Source: a virus (lineage: Duplodnaviria; Heunggongvirae; Uroviricota; Caudoviricetes). From it: 64,000 bases of DNA. The stretch is from the IMG/VR virus record IMGVR_UViG_2698536687_000001; one strand, written 5' to 3'. Under the pieces are notes generated by a model. The model ran no database searches and had not been told where the DNA came from. It saw only the letters and a list, made by a program, of their open reading frames with translations. Of the stretch, positions 32,216-63,751 are shown piece after piece. Every line of letters starts with the position of its first letter. Positions within the stretch are counted from its first letter, which is position 1. The position numbers were made by a program, and so were the translations under genes.

Positions 32216-32554
32216 AATGGCAGCCTCCTTTGACTAAGTTAAGGAGCTACCGCGTGAGGTCTCAATCTCAATGGCGGTAGCACTGACTGGGTTGAGACTA
32301 CCGGCGTCAAAGGGAACCGGCCTGCCTTTCGGCAGCCCAGCCAGCACTACCATTGATTTCGGAGCTAAACGCTACGTATGGCTGTGCGATGGCATGACAC
32401 AAAAAAAGACGCTTTCGGCGTCTGTGTCGCCTTTGACATTATCCGGGGTCTCAATCCCGGCACCCGTTTTAATGAGGTGCCTGATAAGCATAAACCGAAA
32501 ATGCCTCAAGGCGCAAGAGGTCAGGTTCAATGTAGCATCGGTAGTTAAAAAACA

Positions 32555-34045: not shown

Positions 34046-34384
34046 AATGGCAGCCTCCTTTTGCTAATTTAAGGAGCTACCGCGTGAGGTCTCAATCTCA
34101 ATGGCGGTAGCACTGACTGGGTTGAGACTACCGGCGCAAAAGGGAACCGGCCTGCCTTTCGGCAGCCCAGCCAGCACTACCATTGATCTCTGAGCTAAAC
34201 GCTACGTATGGCTGTGCGATGGCATGACACAAAAAAAGACGCTTTTGGCGTCTGTGTCGCCTTTTGCATTATCCGGGGTCTCAATCCCGGCACCCGTTTT
34301 ACTGAGGTGCCTGATAAGCATAAACCGAAAATGCCTCAAGGCGCAAGAGGTCAGGTTCAATGTAACATCGGTAGTTAAAAAACA

Positions 34385-59561: not shown

Positions 59562-62500
59562 TTAGAGCAATATGCCTAAAACGTCATGAGCAACACCTCG
59601 AGTGTCCCCCTTACAAGACACAGAACGTCTGGCAAAAAGAGGTTCCACTCTGAAGCCATTGTCATGATAAAGCTCTCTGATGTTTGGCGCGCCACTGTTA
59701 GTAATGAGAACCTTTGCACCTCGGCGATGAGCATCCGTCAACAGAGACACCAGGCGTTTTTGCTCTTCAAACTTAAAGTCATGACCGGAATAGTTCGTGA
59801 ATCCCTCTGTATTTGGAAGCGGTTCATATGGCGGATCGCAAAAAATGACATCTCCTTCTCCGGCAGCTTCAATCACCGCAGCAAAATCACCACATACAAA
59901 CTCAGAACGACCTTCCGCACCGAGGAAGGCTTCCATCTCCTGTAATGGGAAATACGGAGTTTTATACTTCCCATAACCGACATTGAACTCACCGGCCTGG
60001 TTGTAACGCGTCAATCCGTTAAAACAATGTCGGTTCAGGAACAAAAACGCCGCTGCGCGATGTAAATCATCATAGACTTGTTTGTTAAACGCATTCCGTA
60101 CTGCCAAGTATCCTTCCTGTGTCTTGTAGTCCTGGAAAAACTGATGCGCCAGTGTGATAAGTGAATGCGCCTCGCGTTGCAGAGTCTTGTAAAAGTTAAT
60201 CAGGTCAGCATTCACATCATTTAGCAGATTTTCCTGGTATCCGGCATTCATGAAGACAGCTCCGCCACCGACGAAAGGTTCAATCAGGCGCTTCCCTTCT
60301 GGCAAATAGCGAAAGATTTGTTCCAGAACACCAAATTTTCCACCAGCCCATTTGAATATGGACCGTTCGAATTCTGCCGCTGGTTTAACTTTTCGCTCTT
60401 TTGTTTCACGCCCTTCATTCTGCCGACATGCAGCCTTGGTTATCCGCTCGCCAATCCAGCGCATTACTGGTATCGCCATACTATTGCCGATCGCTTTGTA
60501 ACGCGGTCCGTCAGCTGCAAGCATCGCGGCCTCTTCTTCGCTTAAATCTGGATAGTGATTGTGCAGATATACCAGTTCATCTGAATTAACTTTTTTACGC
60601 TTTTCCGTAGGGATCAACGTATGCCCATCAGGAAAACCTTGAAGTCTCTCACATTCGACAGGGGTAAGACGGCGGACAGCTACTTCTTCGTTTCTTACTT
60701 CATAGCAAACAGCAGTTGGATTTTGAGCCATTAGAGATGGTGAAGTATTCTTAGTTGCTGCATGTTGTGTACCACTCATACGCTCAGGAAAAGCCAATGT
60801 AACAAGATGCTCATGGCTTTCTTGCTCACGCGCCCGCAATGTACCATGCCCTTCTGACCAAAAACCTGCTCCAGTGCTGCTAAAAACGGCAAGGTCAGTG
60901 GCATCTTTAAAGTCTCTTGCCTTTACTGTCGATGCGGTTTCATCGTCAATATATTCCCCAAATGCCGCCATCCTGAAACCGTTTACGGCTTTCGTCGATT
61001 TCATACCGGGGGACATGCCAGCGTGTAGGCATGGATTTAGGCTTTCGCCACTGATTGCAGCGCCATTTGCAGTAATGGCGGAAGCGATTTCCTTCTTTTT
61101 TCGGCTCGGCGCAATATTCCGGCGCACGCCTTCGAACTCAAAAAGTACCGTTGCGGGATCGAGGTCTGTTCGAGCACTTGCGACAACAAACACGCGTCGG
61201 CGTCGTTGTGCCACTCCGAAGTATTGGGCATCAAGGATTCTCCAGGCCACCTTTCGCTGCGGTCCATAAATACAACCACACTGTGGCCACTTTGGAGCAT
61301 GGCAACCGGTTTTGCCATCCCACCGCCAGAACGCGTTACTTTTTCCTGATTCAGGTCGATCACCTGGTTCAAATGGCGCATCTTCTCCAGCCAATCCGGC
61401 AAGGAAACATCCGAAGGCGTTATCTGCCGATGACAAGACTCCTGGGACATTTTCCCAGACGATAACGGCTGGTTTGAGAAATGACTCAGCCCGTTTGTCG
61501 TCAATTGCATTTGCAAGCTCCACATACTTTAAAGTTAGCGCGCCACGCTCATCATCAAGCCCACCACGTAATCCAGCGATACTGAATGCCTGACAGTTAT
61601 GGACCACCGCACCATTGAGGATATAGGAATGATCACCTTCGACTTCTATGTTGTATACAGTATCTAGGCCTACCGATTTAAACTCTTTGACTGTTCGTAA
61701 AAGCATTCCATGAGCCAATCTTGATTTACGTGACAATTTCTGCGGGCAGATTGTTACCTGATAATAATTCCGTTGATTTACCACGCGATCCTCAATCACT
61801 TTTTTGGGCTTAACTTCAATAAAGCTGACCGAAGAAACGTAACCACAAGTCTGTGACAACTCCGCAACGCCCCAAGCAAGCGCAGGACTAACACTATTAA
61901 TTCTAAATCCCGCTTTACCACTTGGTGTCCCATCAGTATCAAGATAGCCTTGTAAAAACACATGACGCAATGGATGCGACATAACCCATGCAGGGATACG
62001 CTTAGCATGGCTTAACTCGCCAAAATGTTCATTAAGCCAATTGGCATAACACGTATCATTCAAGGTTACTTTGATGCTCCCTCGGATTTCGCTTGCCACG
62101 GAAAATATGTTTTCTGGTATGCGGCAATGAAACTTTCTCAATTTCTGGCAATTTATGCCAAAAACAACCGCCTTCTTAGATTTACCTCTCCATCTCCTAA
62201 TATATCCATCGCCAACATAAGCGCCCGCAAGATACATAGCCTGTTCTTCAGACAAGAACCGAGAACAAATATCTGGAGATGCAATATTGAAATTAGTTAG
62301 AGCACACCATTGATATCCCGGCATATCACATGCTGCTCGCCATTCCGGTTCAGACAACAACTCTCTCTTAAAATATGTGCCATTTTTCCGGGTGTTTTGG
62401 GCTTTCCACCGAACCGCCAGGAAGGGATGGTCATTGGTTGTTCTTATACCTAAAGGCTGCCCAACGGCATTAAGTAACCCCGTATTAGCTATTTTTGAAC

Positions 62501-62849
62501 CAACTCTTTTTACTTGTTGTAACCGCCCGAGATGACTGACTACGTAATCGCCAGGGCAAACATCTTCTATTGGTTTATAACCATTTTTACAAAGAACCAT
62601 ATGCCCCGCGGTAAAACATGGTGTCCCTCCCACCAGCACATCAGGGGCTTCAATTTCTCCAGCCTGGACTTTTTGGGCGAGTTTTGTCATGTCGCCAAGG
62701 TTGGCGACATGGGGCCAGTGGTACGCAAGAACGGCAGATGGAAAAGGCTCGATTTCAGCAAACCACGCCGGACGCATACCCAACGGTTCCCAGGCAATAC
62801 TCGCGGCTTCAATTCCACTGCAAACAGATCCATAGCACAGCTCTTTCAC
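59562..62849 (-). CDS. dmt: Dmt bifunctional DNA methyltransferase (N-terminal C5-cytosine domain, C-terminal Dam-like N6-adenine domain) containing an intein
   Basis: 1095 aa; C5 motif [14 protein letters not shown] split by a 341-aa insert; C-terminal Dam-like region (WAGGKFGVL...[10 protein letters not shown]...DPPY); extein total 754 aa. Confidence 0.9.
61596..62618 (-). mobile_element. Intein with LAGLIDADG homing endonuclease inserted at the catalytic Cys of the Dmt C5-MTase PCQ motif
   Basis: Begins CFTAGHMV (block A), TNDH (block B), [11 protein letters not shown] and [11 protein letters not shown] (LAGLIDADG motifs), [21 protein letters not shown] followed by +1 Cys; in frame, 341 aa. 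Confidence 0.85.
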
Positions 62850-63751
62850 TGCTTAGCCTCTCCACCAAGGGCATTTACCAGAGCATCAACCAGGCACGAA
62901 ATTTCACTGGTCAACAGGAAGAAATCTGCGTCCAGTCGCTGCGCTACATCTTCACTATCAATATCAGAGTTCTGATCAAGCAATTCATCCGCAAATTTGA
63001 CGCTGGTAAGGCTGAAGTTATGGTCCAGTGTAAATTTAATGCGGTTCTGCCAGTCGAGTGCCAACTTAGTGACGAGCTTGCCAGCTTCCAGGTGTGTGGA
63101 AATTTCATCGCTTCCCAAATCCTGCTTTTTCACTCGGGCAATACCGCCATCCTCAAGCACTGCCTTAAGTTCTGCCGCATCCCCCATTTGAAATCCCTGT
63201 GGAGCACTACCATCACGTACCCAGTCGGTCAGCGTTAATTCAATGGGATTTTCAACACCCAGGGGAACAACAGGAAGAGAACCCAGAGACTTACGCATAA
63301 GCGCGAGCATATCCTCTGCCTGCCGCGCGCTGGCATTGATATAGATACGTTTAGTTGAACCGTCGTAGATCGCCTGGATAACAGAAAACTTTGAAAAAGC
63401 CCGTGGCAGAAGAGAATGCAGAACTTCGTCTTTCAGGGAGTCCTTCTCTGTTTTCTTCAGTTTACGCGCTTGTTCTTGCTCAAGTTTTTCAATTTTTTCT
63501 TGAATAGCTCGCTGGATAACCGGCGGGGGAAGAATTTTTGTTTCGCGCTTTGCTTCAACAAGGATAAAACCATTTCCATGCATAGCGATAACTTCGGAAT
63601 TATCACCAAATGGAGATACAAAACCGAACTTGGCCATATCCTGACTACCGCATGGCGTGAAAAGGATCATTTTCTTTTTATCTTCTAAGTCGGTCAGATC
63701 CGCCTCACGAGAAAGTTTATAAATAGTAATGTTTTTCCAGTGCTTAAACAT
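62846..63751 (-). CDS. hrdC: HrdC, RdgC-family recombination-associated protein
   Basis: About 301 aa from [16 protein letters not shown] (AAGGG RBS), collinear with E. coli RdgC motifs ([40 protein letters not shown]); stop overlaps dmt start. Confidence 0.9.

What the first reader, a model, noticed from the sequence alone, without database searches (positions are those of the whole stretch)
61596..62618. Intein with LAGLIDADG homing endonuclease splitting the catalytic PCQ motif of the Dmt cytosine methyltransferase
The dmt ORF is 1095 aa. Its C5-MTase motif IV reads VGGTP, then a 341-aa insert, then [12 protein letters not shown]. The insert starts with Cys, has a TNDH block B, two LAGLIDADG motifs ([22 protein letters not shown]) and ends VVHN before a +1 Cys, which is the catalytic nucleophile of the methyltransferase. 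Removing it gives 754 aa and restores [12 protein letters not shown]. The methyltransferase should therefore be inactive until protein splicing occurs. I do not recall an intein being described at this position in a phage methyltransferase.
Basis: partly seen in the sequence, partly recalled or inferred. Interest (0 to 1): 0.85.

Follow-up and report, generated by a model that had tools for sequence, protein, structure and literature searches.

The report
Intein inside P1-like phage Dmt methyltransferase
The DNA methyltransferase gene of this P1-like phage-plasmid is interrupted, exactly at the enzyme's catalytic cysteine, by a self-splicing protein element (an intein) that carries its own DNA-cutting enzyme. 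It is a real and well-preserved member of a known kind of selfish element, common in E. coli plasmids but never labelled as such.

Summary
ORF 59562-62849 (-) encodes a 1095-aa P1-type Dmt, with a C5-cytosine MTase domain fused to a Dam domain. Residues 78-418 (window 61596-62618) are a 341-aa in-frame insert between Pro77 and the PCQ cysteine. Reference P1 Dmt (754 aa) lacks exactly this segment.

The insert has every sequence hallmark of a class-1 intein: Cys1, TNDH, two LAGLIDADG motifs with their acidic residues, block F, a terminal HN and a +1 Cys. It passes the Pfam LAGLIDADG_3 and Hint_2 cut-offs and the NCBIfam intein_Cterm cut-off. Its AlphaFold model (pLDDT 91.8) matches PI-SceI, TliVMA and PI-PfuI.

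- **Frequency:** about 133 of about 498 P1-like plasmids in PLSDB carry it, as do 152 of 5426 complete E. coli genomes. All copies in those genomes are full length.
- **Lab strain:** one P1 lab isolate (OP279344) also carries it.
- **Evolution:** it is less diverged than its N-extein, has lower GC, and shows rough dN/dS of about 0.24.
- **Wider family:** related inteins sit at the same P|CQ site in C5 MTases of many other phages and bacteria.

No paper found describes it, and annotation never names it. Splicing and homing are inferred, not shown.

Verdict: real, a new member of a known kind, of moderate interest.

The parts
59562..62849 (-). dmt precursor ORF, 1095 aa plus stop (predicted 121.7 kDa). 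It has an N-terminal C5-cytosine MTase domain split by the intein and a C-terminal Dam (D12 class N6-adenine) MTase domain.
   Evidence: ORF. Pfam PF00145 and PF02086. NCBIfam dam TIGR00571 at 249.6 bits. 97% identity to dmt of phage RCS47 and P1. Mass.
62619..62849 (-). N-extein, residues 1-77. It carries MTase motif I (GSVCSGIEA) and the first half of motif IV (GGTP).
61596..62618 (-). Intein, 341 aa (predicted 38.3 kDa): a class-1 HINT splicing domain with an inserted LAGLIDADG homing endonuclease domain.
   Evidence: GC is 42.7% against 49.1% for the exteins.
62616..62618 (-). Intein Cys1 codon (block A nucleophile).
   Evidence: Invariant in the alignment of 11 homologues.
62427..62438 (-). 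Block B, TNDH (TxxH).
   Evidence: T61 and H64 are invariant.
62205..62231 (-). First LAGLIDADG motif, LAGAYVGDG, with the acidic residue D137.
   Evidence: G132, D137 and G138 are invariant.
61929..61955 (-). Second LAGLIDADG motif, LQGYLDTDG, with the acidic residue D229.
   Evidence: G224 and G230 are invariant and D229 is at least 90% conserved. Pfam LAGLIDADG_3 matches residues 221-285.
61623..61658 (-). Block [13 protein letters not shown].
   Evidence: This stretch aligns to the Spl DnaX mini-intein C-terminus.
61596..61607 (-). Block G, VVHN, ending in the terminal Asn341.
   Evidence: N341 is invariant. TIGR01443 match.
61593..61595 (-). +1 Cys. It is the C-extein nucleophile for splicing and also the catalytic Cys of MTase motif IV (PCQ).
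   Evidence: Alignment to M.HaeIII and M.HhaI motif IV.
59565..61595 (-). C-extein, 677 aa. It holds the rest of the C5-MTase domain (motifs IV-X including the variable target-recognition region) followed by the Dam domain.
60696..61100 (-). Variable target-recognition region of the C5-MTase domain, long variant. A shorter, unrelated variant occurs in other dmt alleles, both with and without the intein.
   Evidence: Alignment. Gene lengths of 3288, 3042, 2265 and 2019 bp.
59652..60350 (-). Dam (D12 class) adenine MTase domain, precursor residues 834-1066, including DPPY.
   Evidence: Pfam PF02086 at E 3.6e-56. Motif positions.
62846..63751 (-). Upstream gene rdgC/hrdC. Its stop overlaps the dmt start, as in the P1 operon uhr-hrdC-dmt.
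   Evidence: Pfam RdgC at E 2.6e-97. P1 and RCS47 annotation.

Best explanation
The 341-aa segment is a genuine, intact class-1 intein with a LAGLIDADG homing endonuclease. It is inserted between Pro77 and the catalytic Cys of motif IV (PCQ) in the C5-cytosine methyltransferase domain of a P1-type Dmt.

**Likely working (inferred).**
1. dmt is translated as a 121.7-kDa precursor in which the C5 active-site loop is split.
2. Cys1 makes the N-S acyl shift, helped by block B Thr61 and His64.
3. The +1 Cys, which is the future MTase nucleophile, attacks the thioester.
4. Asn341 cyclises, helped by His340.
5. An S-N shift joins the exteins. The products are an 83.4-kDa Dmt with GGTPCQAFS restored and a free 38.3-kDa intein.

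The Dam domain lies downstream and probably does not need splicing.

The freed intein is expected to cut intein-less dmt alleles at or near ...GGAACACCT|TGTCAGGCATTC.... Repair from the intein-bearing copy would then copy it in (homing). This could happen when two P1-like genomes meet in one cell, and dmt is expressed from a C1-repressed operon after induction or infection.

**Shown here:** the anatomy, the fold, the presence/absence polymorphism, the conservation, and the population pattern.

**Inferred:** splicing, endonuclease activity, and homing.
For: - **Exact in-frame insertion absent from reference P1 Dmt**. 362 PLSDB plasmids have an uninterrupted junction, against 133 that hold the intein DNA.
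- **All canonical residues present**. They are invariant or nearly so across homologues of 28-53% identity: C1, T61, H64, D137, D229, N341.
- **Family models:** LAGLIDADG_3 and Hint_2 reach their Pfam cut-offs, and TIGR01443 passes its own.
- **Fold:** the AF2 model has pLDDT 91.8. Top PDB matches are PI-SceI, TliVMA, PhoVMA and PI-PfuI inteins, followed by I-DmoI and I-SceI for the nuclease core.
- **No decay:** all 153 copies in 152 complete E. coli genomes cover at least 80% of the intein. Among 8 alleles there are 13 synonymous and 11 nonsynonymous variable codons, none in blocks A, B, C, E, F or G. Rough dN/dS is about 0.24.
- **Signs of horizontal spread:**
  - Intein identity between alleles is 98.6-100%, while their N-exteins differ by up to 8%.
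  - Intein GC is 42.7% against 49.1% for the exteins.
  - The intein occurs with both target-recognition variants, and both variants also occur without it.
- **Same-site relatives in unrelated C5 MTases:** Mannheimia phage 587AP2 GGTP|CQ (48% identity), Propionibacterium phage B22 GGSP|CQ, Lactobacillus phage Nyseid GFP|CQ, E. coli jumbo phage A4 GGFP|CQ. At least 93 of the best 147 cluster representatives in a 1.84-billion-protein library also have this junction.
- **Spliced product:** it aligns to M.HaeIII and M.HhaI across motif IV.
Against: - No experiment shows splicing or cleavage.
- Pfam Intein_splicing scores below its cut-off (22.1 against 35.8 bits), and Hint_2 passes by only 0.1 bit.
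- Block F has Asn where many class-1 inteins have Asp (VYNI rather than VYDL).
- In PLSDB every intein-less junction tested has Pro77 = CCT (158 records), and none has the CCA found next to the intein (0 records for two haplotypes). The remaining empty sites may therefore be refractory and homing may have stalled. Simple linkage of the adjacent base explains the pattern equally well.
- The assortment with target-recognition variants could come from ordinary recombination rather than homing.
- 9 of the 11 nonsynonymous variable codons lie in the endonuclease part. This is compatible with somewhat relaxed constraint there.
Confidence: 0.85

Rival explanations
1. The intein still splices but its homing endonuclease is inactive, or has no cleavable targets left. 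The element would then persist by vertical descent of P1-like plasmids and by ordinary homologous recombination. This is the late phase of the homing cycle.
For: - The base next to the insertion point is perfectly partitioned. All intein-less junctions tested are CCT and all occupied ones CCA. That is the pattern expected if only resistant empty sites remain.
- Most nonsynonymous polymorphism lies in the endonuclease region.
- One distant homologue (P0009) has lost the second acidic residue (DTNG) and the penultimate His (VVNN). So members of this family do decay.
Against: - Both LAGLIDADG acidic residues and the surrounding glycines are intact here and conserved.
- No truncated mini-intein copies appear among 153 E. 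coli copies.
- Rough dN/dS of about 0.24 over the whole element.
- The intein is far less diverged than the N-exteins it sits in. This argues for recent transfer between alleles.
Confidence: 0.25
2. The insert is a non-splicing, domesticated HINT/LAGLIDADG domain. The 1095-aa protein would work as it is: the C5 domain is dead or repurposed, and the Dam domain does the essential job.
For: - P1 needs only GATC methylation from Dmt or host Dam, according to the review text quoted. Loss of C5 activity might therefore be tolerated.
- The Dam domain is intact and separate.
- Splicing has not been shown.
Against: - All residues needed only for splicing (Cys1, TxxH, HN, +1 Cys) are kept across homologues of about 30% identity in unrelated MTases.
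- The exteins keep all C5-MTase motifs: I, IV, VI, VIII and X.
- The insert is a strict presence/absence polymorphism at one peptide bond.
- It recurs at the same bond in at least 93 distinct protein clusters. That is typical of homing elements, not of domain fusions.
Confidence: 0.05
3. The insert is an RNA-level element (a group I or II intron with an in-frame ORF), or an assembly or annotation artefact.
For: None found. This was considered only because phage genes often carry endonuclease-encoding introns.
Against: - The reading frame is continuous with no stop through 1095 codons.
- The same 1023-bp segment is present in 133 plasmid records and 152 complete genomes from independent projects.
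- The exact protein is seen on 101 contigs.
- No Rfam family reaches its gathering score in dmt.
- The boundaries are intein boundaries (Cys ... His-Asn | Cys).
Confidence: 0.01

Closest known systems
PI-SceI (S. cerevisiae VMA1 intein) and the archaeal VMA and PI-PfuI inteins
   Same: - Class-1 intein with Cys1, a terminal His-Asn and a +1 Cys.
- A two-motif LAGLIDADG endonuclease inserted in the HINT domain.
- These are the best structural matches (E 3.5e-17 to 2.3e-10).
   Different: - Only 11-16% sequence identity.
- The host protein is a DNA methyltransferase of a temperate phage-plasmid rather than an ATPase or ribonucleotide reductase.
- At 341 aa it is shorter than PI-SceI, and TM-scores of 0.52-0.63 show domain-level rather than full superposition.
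Same-site inteins in C5-cytosine MTases of other phages and bacteria: Mannheimia phage vB_MhS_587AP2, Propionibacterium phage B22 gp50, Lactobacillus phage Nyseid, Escherichia jumbo phage A4, and many metagenomic proteins
   Same: - Identical insertion point, before the catalytic Cys of motif IV (xP|CQxxS).
- The same block pattern: CF.AG..., T..H, two LAGLIDADG motifs, VVHN.
- 28-53% identity to the window intein.
   Different: - The exteins are single-domain or otherwise different MTases, not the Dmt C5+Dam fusion.
- None is annotated as an intein in the records seen.
- The Mannheimia copy is followed by a disrupted C-extein.
Actinobacteriophage DNA methylase inteins (Kelley et al. 2016, PMC5050341; Gosselin et al. 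2023, PMC9957025; bioRxiv 10.1101/2025.01.02.630785)
   Same: - LAGLIDADG inteins in orphan phage DNA methyltransferases, with patchy distribution and evidence of transfer between divergent methylases.
- The 2025 survey lists C-5 methylase (IPR001525) among the hosts.
   Different: - The methylases described in detail are N6/N4 type (PF01555).
- The copy examined here (Pacc40 gp60) sits at another motif (MHV|CPLQFD) and is only 26.6% identical.
- None of these papers mentions P1, Dmt or enterobacteria in the passages retrieved.
Spl DnaX mini-intein (PDB 7cfv)
   Same: It is the only solved chain found by sequence alone. Blocks F and G align (VY.IEVE..H.F..NG..VHN) at E 0.0015.
   Different: It is a mini-intein without an endonuclease, its host is the DnaX clamp-loader subunit, and the match covers only the last 41 residues.

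Membership tests
Intein (class 1, HINT superfamily) | In-frame insertion in a conserved motif of a host protein, absent from close orthologues. | tested here: met
   A 341-column gap against P1 Dmt inside GGTP|CQAF. 362 uninterrupted PLSDB alleles.
Intein (class 1, HINT superfamily) | N-terminal nucleophile Cys or Ser (block A), and block B TxxH. | tested here: met
   Cys1 and T61-N-D-H64. Invariant.
Intein (class 1, HINT superfamily) | C-terminal His-Asn (block G), followed by Cys, Ser or Thr at +1. | tested here: met
   VVHN|C. TIGR01443 at 28.9 bits against a cut-off of 15.6.
Intein (class 1, HINT superfamily) | HINT fold. | tested here: met
   AF2 model pLDDT 91.8. Foldseek matches to PI-SceI, TliVMA and PI-PfuI, and to the Prp8 and GyrA inteins. 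Pfam Hint_2 at 28.5 against 28.4. Pfam Intein_splicing falls below its cut-off (22.1 against 35.8).
Intein (class 1, HINT superfamily) | Autocatalytic protein splicing that ligates the exteins. | not testable with these tools
   This needs expression, then a western blot or mass spectrometry for the junction peptide [27 protein letters not shown].
LAGLIDADG (DOD) homing endonuclease, two-motif monomeric type | Two LAGLIDADG motifs, each ending in a catalytic Asp or Glu. | tested here: met
   LAGAYVGD137G and LQGYLDTD229G. Conservation. Pfam LAGLIDADG_3 at 36.9 bits against 22.5.
LAGLIDADG (DOD) homing endonuclease, two-motif monomeric type | Pseudo-dimeric alpha-beta-beta-alpha-beta-beta-alpha fold. 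| tested here: met
   Foldseek matches to I-DmoI, I-SceI and I-OnuI-type enzymes over about 180-240 columns. Secondary structure is given.
LAGLIDADG (DOD) homing endonuclease, two-motif monomeric type | Site-specific cleavage of the intein-less allele, followed by homing. | not testable with these tools
   Only indirect evidence: the intein is less diverged than the N-extein, it assorts with both target-recognition variants, and it has a foreign GC content.
C5-cytosine DNA methyltransferase (PF00145), host protein | Motifs I, IV (PCQ), VI (ENV), VIII (QxRxR) and X (GNS) in order, once the insert is removed. | tested here: met
   Motif positions in the spliced sequence. Alignment to M.HaeIII and M.HhaI. 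PF00145 at E 7.9e-30. NCBIfam dcm TIGR00675 scores 97.7, just under its 100.65 cut-off, on the unspliced protein.
C5-cytosine DNA methyltransferase (PF00145), host protein | Demonstrated m5C methylation activity. | not tested
   The P1 GenBank note says only 'perhaps at C5 cytosine'. No paper on this activity was found.
P1-type Dmt (bifunctional C5 + Dam methyltransferase of Punavirus) | Orthology and synteny: uhr-hrdC(rdgC)-dmt, followed by the tRNA region. | tested here: met
   96.8-97.6% nucleotide identity to dmt of RCS47 and P1. rdgC lies upstream. The downstream 699 nt are shared with P1.

The most novel reading that the evidence does not exclude
The intein endonuclease may be more than a passive parasite. 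It could act as a weapon between competing P1-like phage-plasmids, cutting the dmt gene of an intein-less rival during superinfection or induction. On this reading the population shows the outcome: every uninvaded allele in PLSDB carries a single silent change (Pro77 CCT rather than CCA) at the base next to the cut-and-insertion point, which could be an immunity mutation.

A second non-excluded reading is that splicing at the catalytic Cys works as a conditional switch, for example redox-sensitive given the Cys1/+1 Cys pair and 11 Cys in the intein. Such a switch would delay C5 methylation relative to Dam methylation.
Probability: 0.12. Interest if true: 0.65.

Novelty: new member of a known kind. 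Interest (0 to 1): 0.45.

Why it matters
**Natural intein in E. coli.** P1 is one of the most used phages in E. coli genetics, and P1-like phage-plasmids are frequent carriers of resistance genes. About a quarter of them carry a well-preserved intein with a homing endonuclease, as do roughly 3% of complete E. coli genomes and at least one laboratory P1 isolate. E. coli therefore does host a natural intein, in a genetically tractable phage. Splicing, homing, co-conversion and target-site immunity could be measured directly with marked P1 derivatives.

**Annotation and specificity.** All records seen call the 1095-aa protein simply a 'Dam family' methyltransferase. Any attempt to predict or express the C5 specificity of Dmt has to take the intein into account.

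**The wider family.** Related inteins occupy the catalytic-Cys site of C5 methyltransferases in at least 93 distinct protein clusters, yet I found almost nothing about this family in the literature searched.

**Limits.** Nothing here changes what inteins are understood to be.

Tried and rejected
**Rejected readings**
- **Chance resemblance.** Rejected on the family-model scores, the confident fold model and the exact gap against P1.
- **Intron or artefact.** Rejected because the frame is continuous, there is no Rfam hit, and hundreds of independent records hold the segment.
- **Domesticated non-splicing domain.** Judged unlikely because splicing-only residues are conserved across distant same-site homologues.

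**Literature**
- Eight full-text searches combined intein with Dmt/P1, P1-like, phage-plasmid, cytosine methyltransferase and mycobacteriophage DNA methylase. None gave a paper describing this intein.
- Apparent hits were reference-list or unrelated mentions.
- Two searches failed because a term was shorter than 3 characters.

**Leads that gave little**
- **Mycobacteriophage hits.** I checked whether the tblastn hits in Mycobacterium phages were the same element. Pacc40 gp60 is an N4/N6 methylase with the intein at another motif, so it is not.
- **Empty sites with CCA.** I looked for intein-less alleles with the CCA codon, which would be candidates for susceptible or precisely excised sites. 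None was found for the two upstream haplotypes tested.
- **PDB by sequence.** The search gave only a 41-residue match. The fold search was needed.
- **Co-conversion tracts.** The comparison of 14 alleles is suggestive. Intein-bearing alleles share a downstream haplotype over about 120 nt, but so do 2 of the 5 empty alleles. The sample is too small to be conclusive.
Full report
**1. The observation**

The window carries a 1095-aa ORF at 59562-62849 on the minus strand. Its product reads ...[10 protein letters not shown], then CFTAGHMV...ILNGAVVHN, then [12 protein letters not shown].... The middle segment is residues 78-418, 341 aa, which is window 61596-62618. The following Cys codon is 61593-61595.

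- TNDH at intein residues 61-64
- [11 protein letters not shown] from residue 130
- [11 protein letters not shown] from residue 221
- VVHN at residues 338-341

Removing the segment gives 754 aa with [12 protein letters not shown]. The coordinates and description are exact.

**2. What the host gene is**

- **Domains.** Pfam finds a C5-cytosine methylase domain (PF00145, E 7.9e-30) and a C-terminal D12-class adenine methylase domain (PF02086, E 3.6e-56). NCBIfam finds dam TIGR00571 at 249.6 bits.
- **Orthology.** The gene is 96.8-97.6% identical in DNA to dmt of phages RCS47, vB_EcoM-Ro157c2YLVW and P1. It sits after rdgC/hrdC, as it does in P1.
- **Source of the window.** The window is therefore part of a P1-like phage-plasmid. 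Over the stretch I compared (dmt plus the 966 nt downstream of it), the window is identical to E. coli plasmid pZBEC21_01, NZ_CP143628.1.
- **Motifs after removal.** With the insert removed, the protein has motifs I, IV (GGTPCQAFS), VI (WENV), VIII (QRRRR) and X (GNS) in order.
- **The +1 Cys.** The spliced sequence aligns with M.HaeIII (GGPPCQSWS) and M.HhaI across motif IV. From established knowledge of C5 methyltransferases, that Cys is the catalytic nucleophile. The +1 Cys of the insert is therefore the enzyme's active-site Cys.

**3. The insert is an intein**

- **Presence/absence.** In a five-way alignment, reference P1 Dmt (AF234172, 754 aa) has one clean 341-column gap. RCS47, Ro157c2YLVW and P1 isolate OP279344 carry the segment.
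- **Family models.** LAGLIDADG_3 scores 36.9 bits (cut-off 22.5), Hint_2 28.5 (cut-off 28.4), and Intein_splicing 22.1 (below its 35.8 cut-off). NCBIfam intein_Cterm TIGR01443 scores 28.9 (cut-off 15.6).
- **Conservation.** Eleven homologues of 28-53% identity keep these residues invariant or nearly so: C1, T61, H64, G132, D137, G138, G224, D229, G230, V321, N323, D329 and N341. These cover splicing blocks A, B, F and G and both endonuclease motifs.
- **Fold.** An AlphaFold2 model built on that alignment has mean pLDDT 91.8 and pTM 0.89. Its best PDB matches are PI-SceI (E 3.5e-17), the TliVMA and PhoVMA inteins, PI-PfuI and intein homing endonuclease II. I-DmoI and I-SceI follow for the nuclease core.
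- **Sequence search of the PDB.** By sequence alone, only the last 41 residues match a solved chain, the Spl DnaX mini-intein.

**4. How common it is, and its state of preservation**

- **Plasmids.** The 1023-bp intein DNA is found in 133 PLSDB plasmid records: 118 Escherichia, 14 Salmonella and 1 Shigella. All are at least 95% identical.
- **Occupancy.** A spliced-junction query finds dmt in 498 plasmid records, and 362 of these are uninterrupted. About a quarter of P1-like plasmids are therefore occupied.
- **Complete genomes.** Among 5426 complete E. coli genomes, 152 carry the intein, always at full length. There are 148 copies on plasmids and 5 on chromosomes.
- **Naming.** The exact window protein is on 101 contigs and is always named 'Dam family site-specific DNA-(adenine-N6)-methyltransferase'. 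No record seen calls it an intein. Only fragments are called 'Hint domain-containing protein'.
- **Selection.** Among eight intein-bearing alleles there are 13 synonymous and 11 nonsynonymous variable codons, none in the conserved blocks. Rough dN/dS is about 0.24.
- **One damaged copy.** NZ_CP027223.1 has a 1-nt deletion and is split by the annotation pipeline.

**5. Signs of mobility**

- **Divergence.** Pairs of intein-bearing alleles are 98.6-100% identical in the intein but only 92-100% identical in the 231-nt N-extein.
- **Base composition.** Intein GC is 42.7%, against 49.1% for the exteins.
- **Assortment with the target-recognition region.** dmt comes with two unrelated target-recognition variants. 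All four combinations with the intein exist, giving genes of 3288, 3042, 2265 and 2019 bp.
- **The base next to the insertion point.** In all nine occupied alleles examined, Pro77 is CCA. In all five empty alleles it is CCT. PLSDB-wide counts for the common upstream haplotype:

| Junction tested | Pro77 codon | PLSDB records |
|---|---|---|
| Empty junction | CCT | 158 |
| Empty junction | CCA | 0 |
| Empty junction, window-type upstream haplotype | CCA | 0 |
| N-extein/intein junction | CCA | 91 |
| N-extein/intein junction | CCT | 0 |

This pattern fits co-conversion or linkage of the adjacent base. It fits equally well a silent immunity change in the remaining empty sites. The data here cannot separate the two.

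**6. A wider family at the same site**

- **In phages.** A tblastn search of the intein against phage genomes finds 26-48% identical inteins. Translating their flanks shows the same insertion point in four C5 methylases: Mannheimia phage 587AP2 (GGTP|CQ), Propionibacterium phage B22 (GGSP|CQDLS), Lactobacillus phage Nyseid (GFP|CQDIS) and E. coli jumbo phage A4 (GGFP|CQAWS).
- **A variant motif.** Pseudomonas phage Lana has the intein at SPD|CTHFS.
- **A different site.** The Mycobacterium phage hits (for example Pacc40 gp60) are in an N4/N6 methylase at another site.
- **Protein database search.** A 5.8-billion-protein search gave 24 homologues, and 20 of them carry PF00145 among their precomputed Pfam domains.
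- **Profile search.** A profile search of 1.84 billion cluster representatives gave 3138 hits at E<=1e-30. Of the best 147, at least 93 have an xP|C...HN|CQxxS-type junction, and 89 of those have ENV within 90 residues downstream.
- **Conclusion.** The catalytic-Cys site of C5 methyltransferases is a widely used intein home.

**7. How it most likely works**

*Shown:* the anatomy, the fold, the polymorphism and the conservation.

*Inferred from the established class-1 mechanism:*
1. The 121.7-kDa precursor undergoes an N-S acyl shift at Cys1.
2. The +1 Cys carries out the transesterification.
3. Asn341 cyclises.
4. An S-N shift follows. The products are an 83.4-kDa Dmt and a 38.3-kDa intein (masses).

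The C5 active-site loop is split until then, so C5 methylation should need splicing. The Dam domain is entirely in the C-extein and probably does not need it.

In P1, dmt belongs to a C1-repressed operon (annotation). The endonuclease would therefore appear after infection or induction, when a second P1-like genome may be in the cell. Cleavage of an empty site and repair from the occupied copy would then spread the intein.

**8. Comparison with what is known**

- **Inteins in phage DNA methylases.** These are described for actinophages, but in N6/N4 enzymes (PMC5050341; PMC9957025).
- **C-5 methylases.** A 2025 preprint lists C-5 methylase (IPR001525) among intein hosts, without detail in the passages retrieved.
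- **P1 and enterobacteria.** I found no paper that mentions an intein in P1 Dmt, in P1-like plasmids or in enterobacterial C5 methylases. The library holds only open-access papers, so a description elsewhere cannot be excluded.
- **From my own memory, not tested here.** The InBase registry listed no C5-methyltransferase intein.
- **Classification.** This is a new, undescribed member of a known kind, and part of a large family that is in the databases but little documented.

**9. Verdict**

1. Only the C5 half should depend on splicing.
2. The insertion site is shared with many other phage and bacterial methylases.
3. A laboratory P1 isolate already carries the intein.

Interest is moderate. 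It offers a convenient natural E. coli and P1 system for studying splicing and homing, and it corrects the annotation. It does not reveal a new mechanism.

Noticed in passing
window 58388-58888 (-), with the ORF at 58417-58836 (-): About 670 nt downstream of dmt, P1 and RCS47 have tRNA-Asn and tRNA-Thr. The window instead has one tRNA-Thr(UGU)-like gene, split by an insertion of about 410-430 nt that is almost entirely a 139-aa HNH endonuclease ORF (PHROG phrog_2255, E 5.8e-39).
- Plain ARAGORN finds no tRNA. With introns allowed it calls tRNA-Thr(tgt) with a 407-nt intron.
- Removing the insertion in silico gives a tRNA call, nearly always tRNA-Thr(tgt), in 171 of 238 boundary combinations.
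- No group I intron or other Rfam family matches, and the tRNA model scores only 26.7 bits on the 5' half.
- Seven PLSDB plasmids share the arrangement.

The insertion is too short for a ribozyme plus an ORF. I cannot tell whether the tRNA is dead or processed in some way.
   Followed up: partly
window 32270-32480 (-) and 34100-34310 (-): There are two copies of the C4 antisense RNA (RF01695, 75 bits each), each with an adjacent isrK match (RF01394), 1830 nt apart. Direct repeats of 300 nt (98% identity) and 115 nt (83% identity) have the same spacing. This looks like a tandem duplication of the P1 immI control region.
   Followed up: no
L003 (AF234172, reference P1) dmt codon 74; equivalent window position about 62628-62630: Reference P1 Dmt reads VWGTPCQ (TGG). 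All 13 other alleles compared read VGGTPCQ. This is a Gly-to-Trp change in the conserved motif IV of the C5 domain. It may be why C5 activity of P1 Dmt is annotated only as 'perhaps'.
   Followed up: no
window 60696-61100 (-); L002, L016 and L017 for the other variant: The target-recognition region of the Dmt C5 domain exists in two unrelated variants, differing by 82 aa in length. They presumably give different cytosine-methylation specificities. Both variants occur with and without the intein.
   Followed up: partly
L002 (OP279344.1, 'Escherichia phage P1 isolate del res del mod'): A laboratory P1 derivative carries the intein together with the short target-recognition variant. Over the N-extein, the intein and 480 nt of C-extein it is identical to Salmonella plasmid NZ_CP149138.1. 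Stocks labelled 'P1' therefore differ at dmt from the Lobocka reference sequence.
   Followed up: partly
L005 (Mannheimia phage vB_MhS_587AP2) 1264-3584: The closest phage relative of the intein (48% identity) is followed by a broken C-extein (CQSDKGG...stop). The rest of the methylase lies in another frame, and an HNH homing endonuclease gene sits immediately downstream. The same truncated protein (P0011) is on 578 contigs of Mannheimia haemolytica.
   Followed up: no
L019 (NZ_CP027223.1) about 3015: A 1-nt deletion about 15 nt into the intein frameshifts dmt, and PGAP splits the gene into a pseudogene plus a shortened CDS. It is either a real decay event or a sequencing error.
   Followed up: no
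proteins P0062 and P0115: Two strong profile hits carry a related intein at a different junction...WENV|CF...VVHN|CGAFS.... This is right after an ENV motif rather than at PCQ, and may be a second intein site in methyltransferase-like proteins.
   Followed up: no
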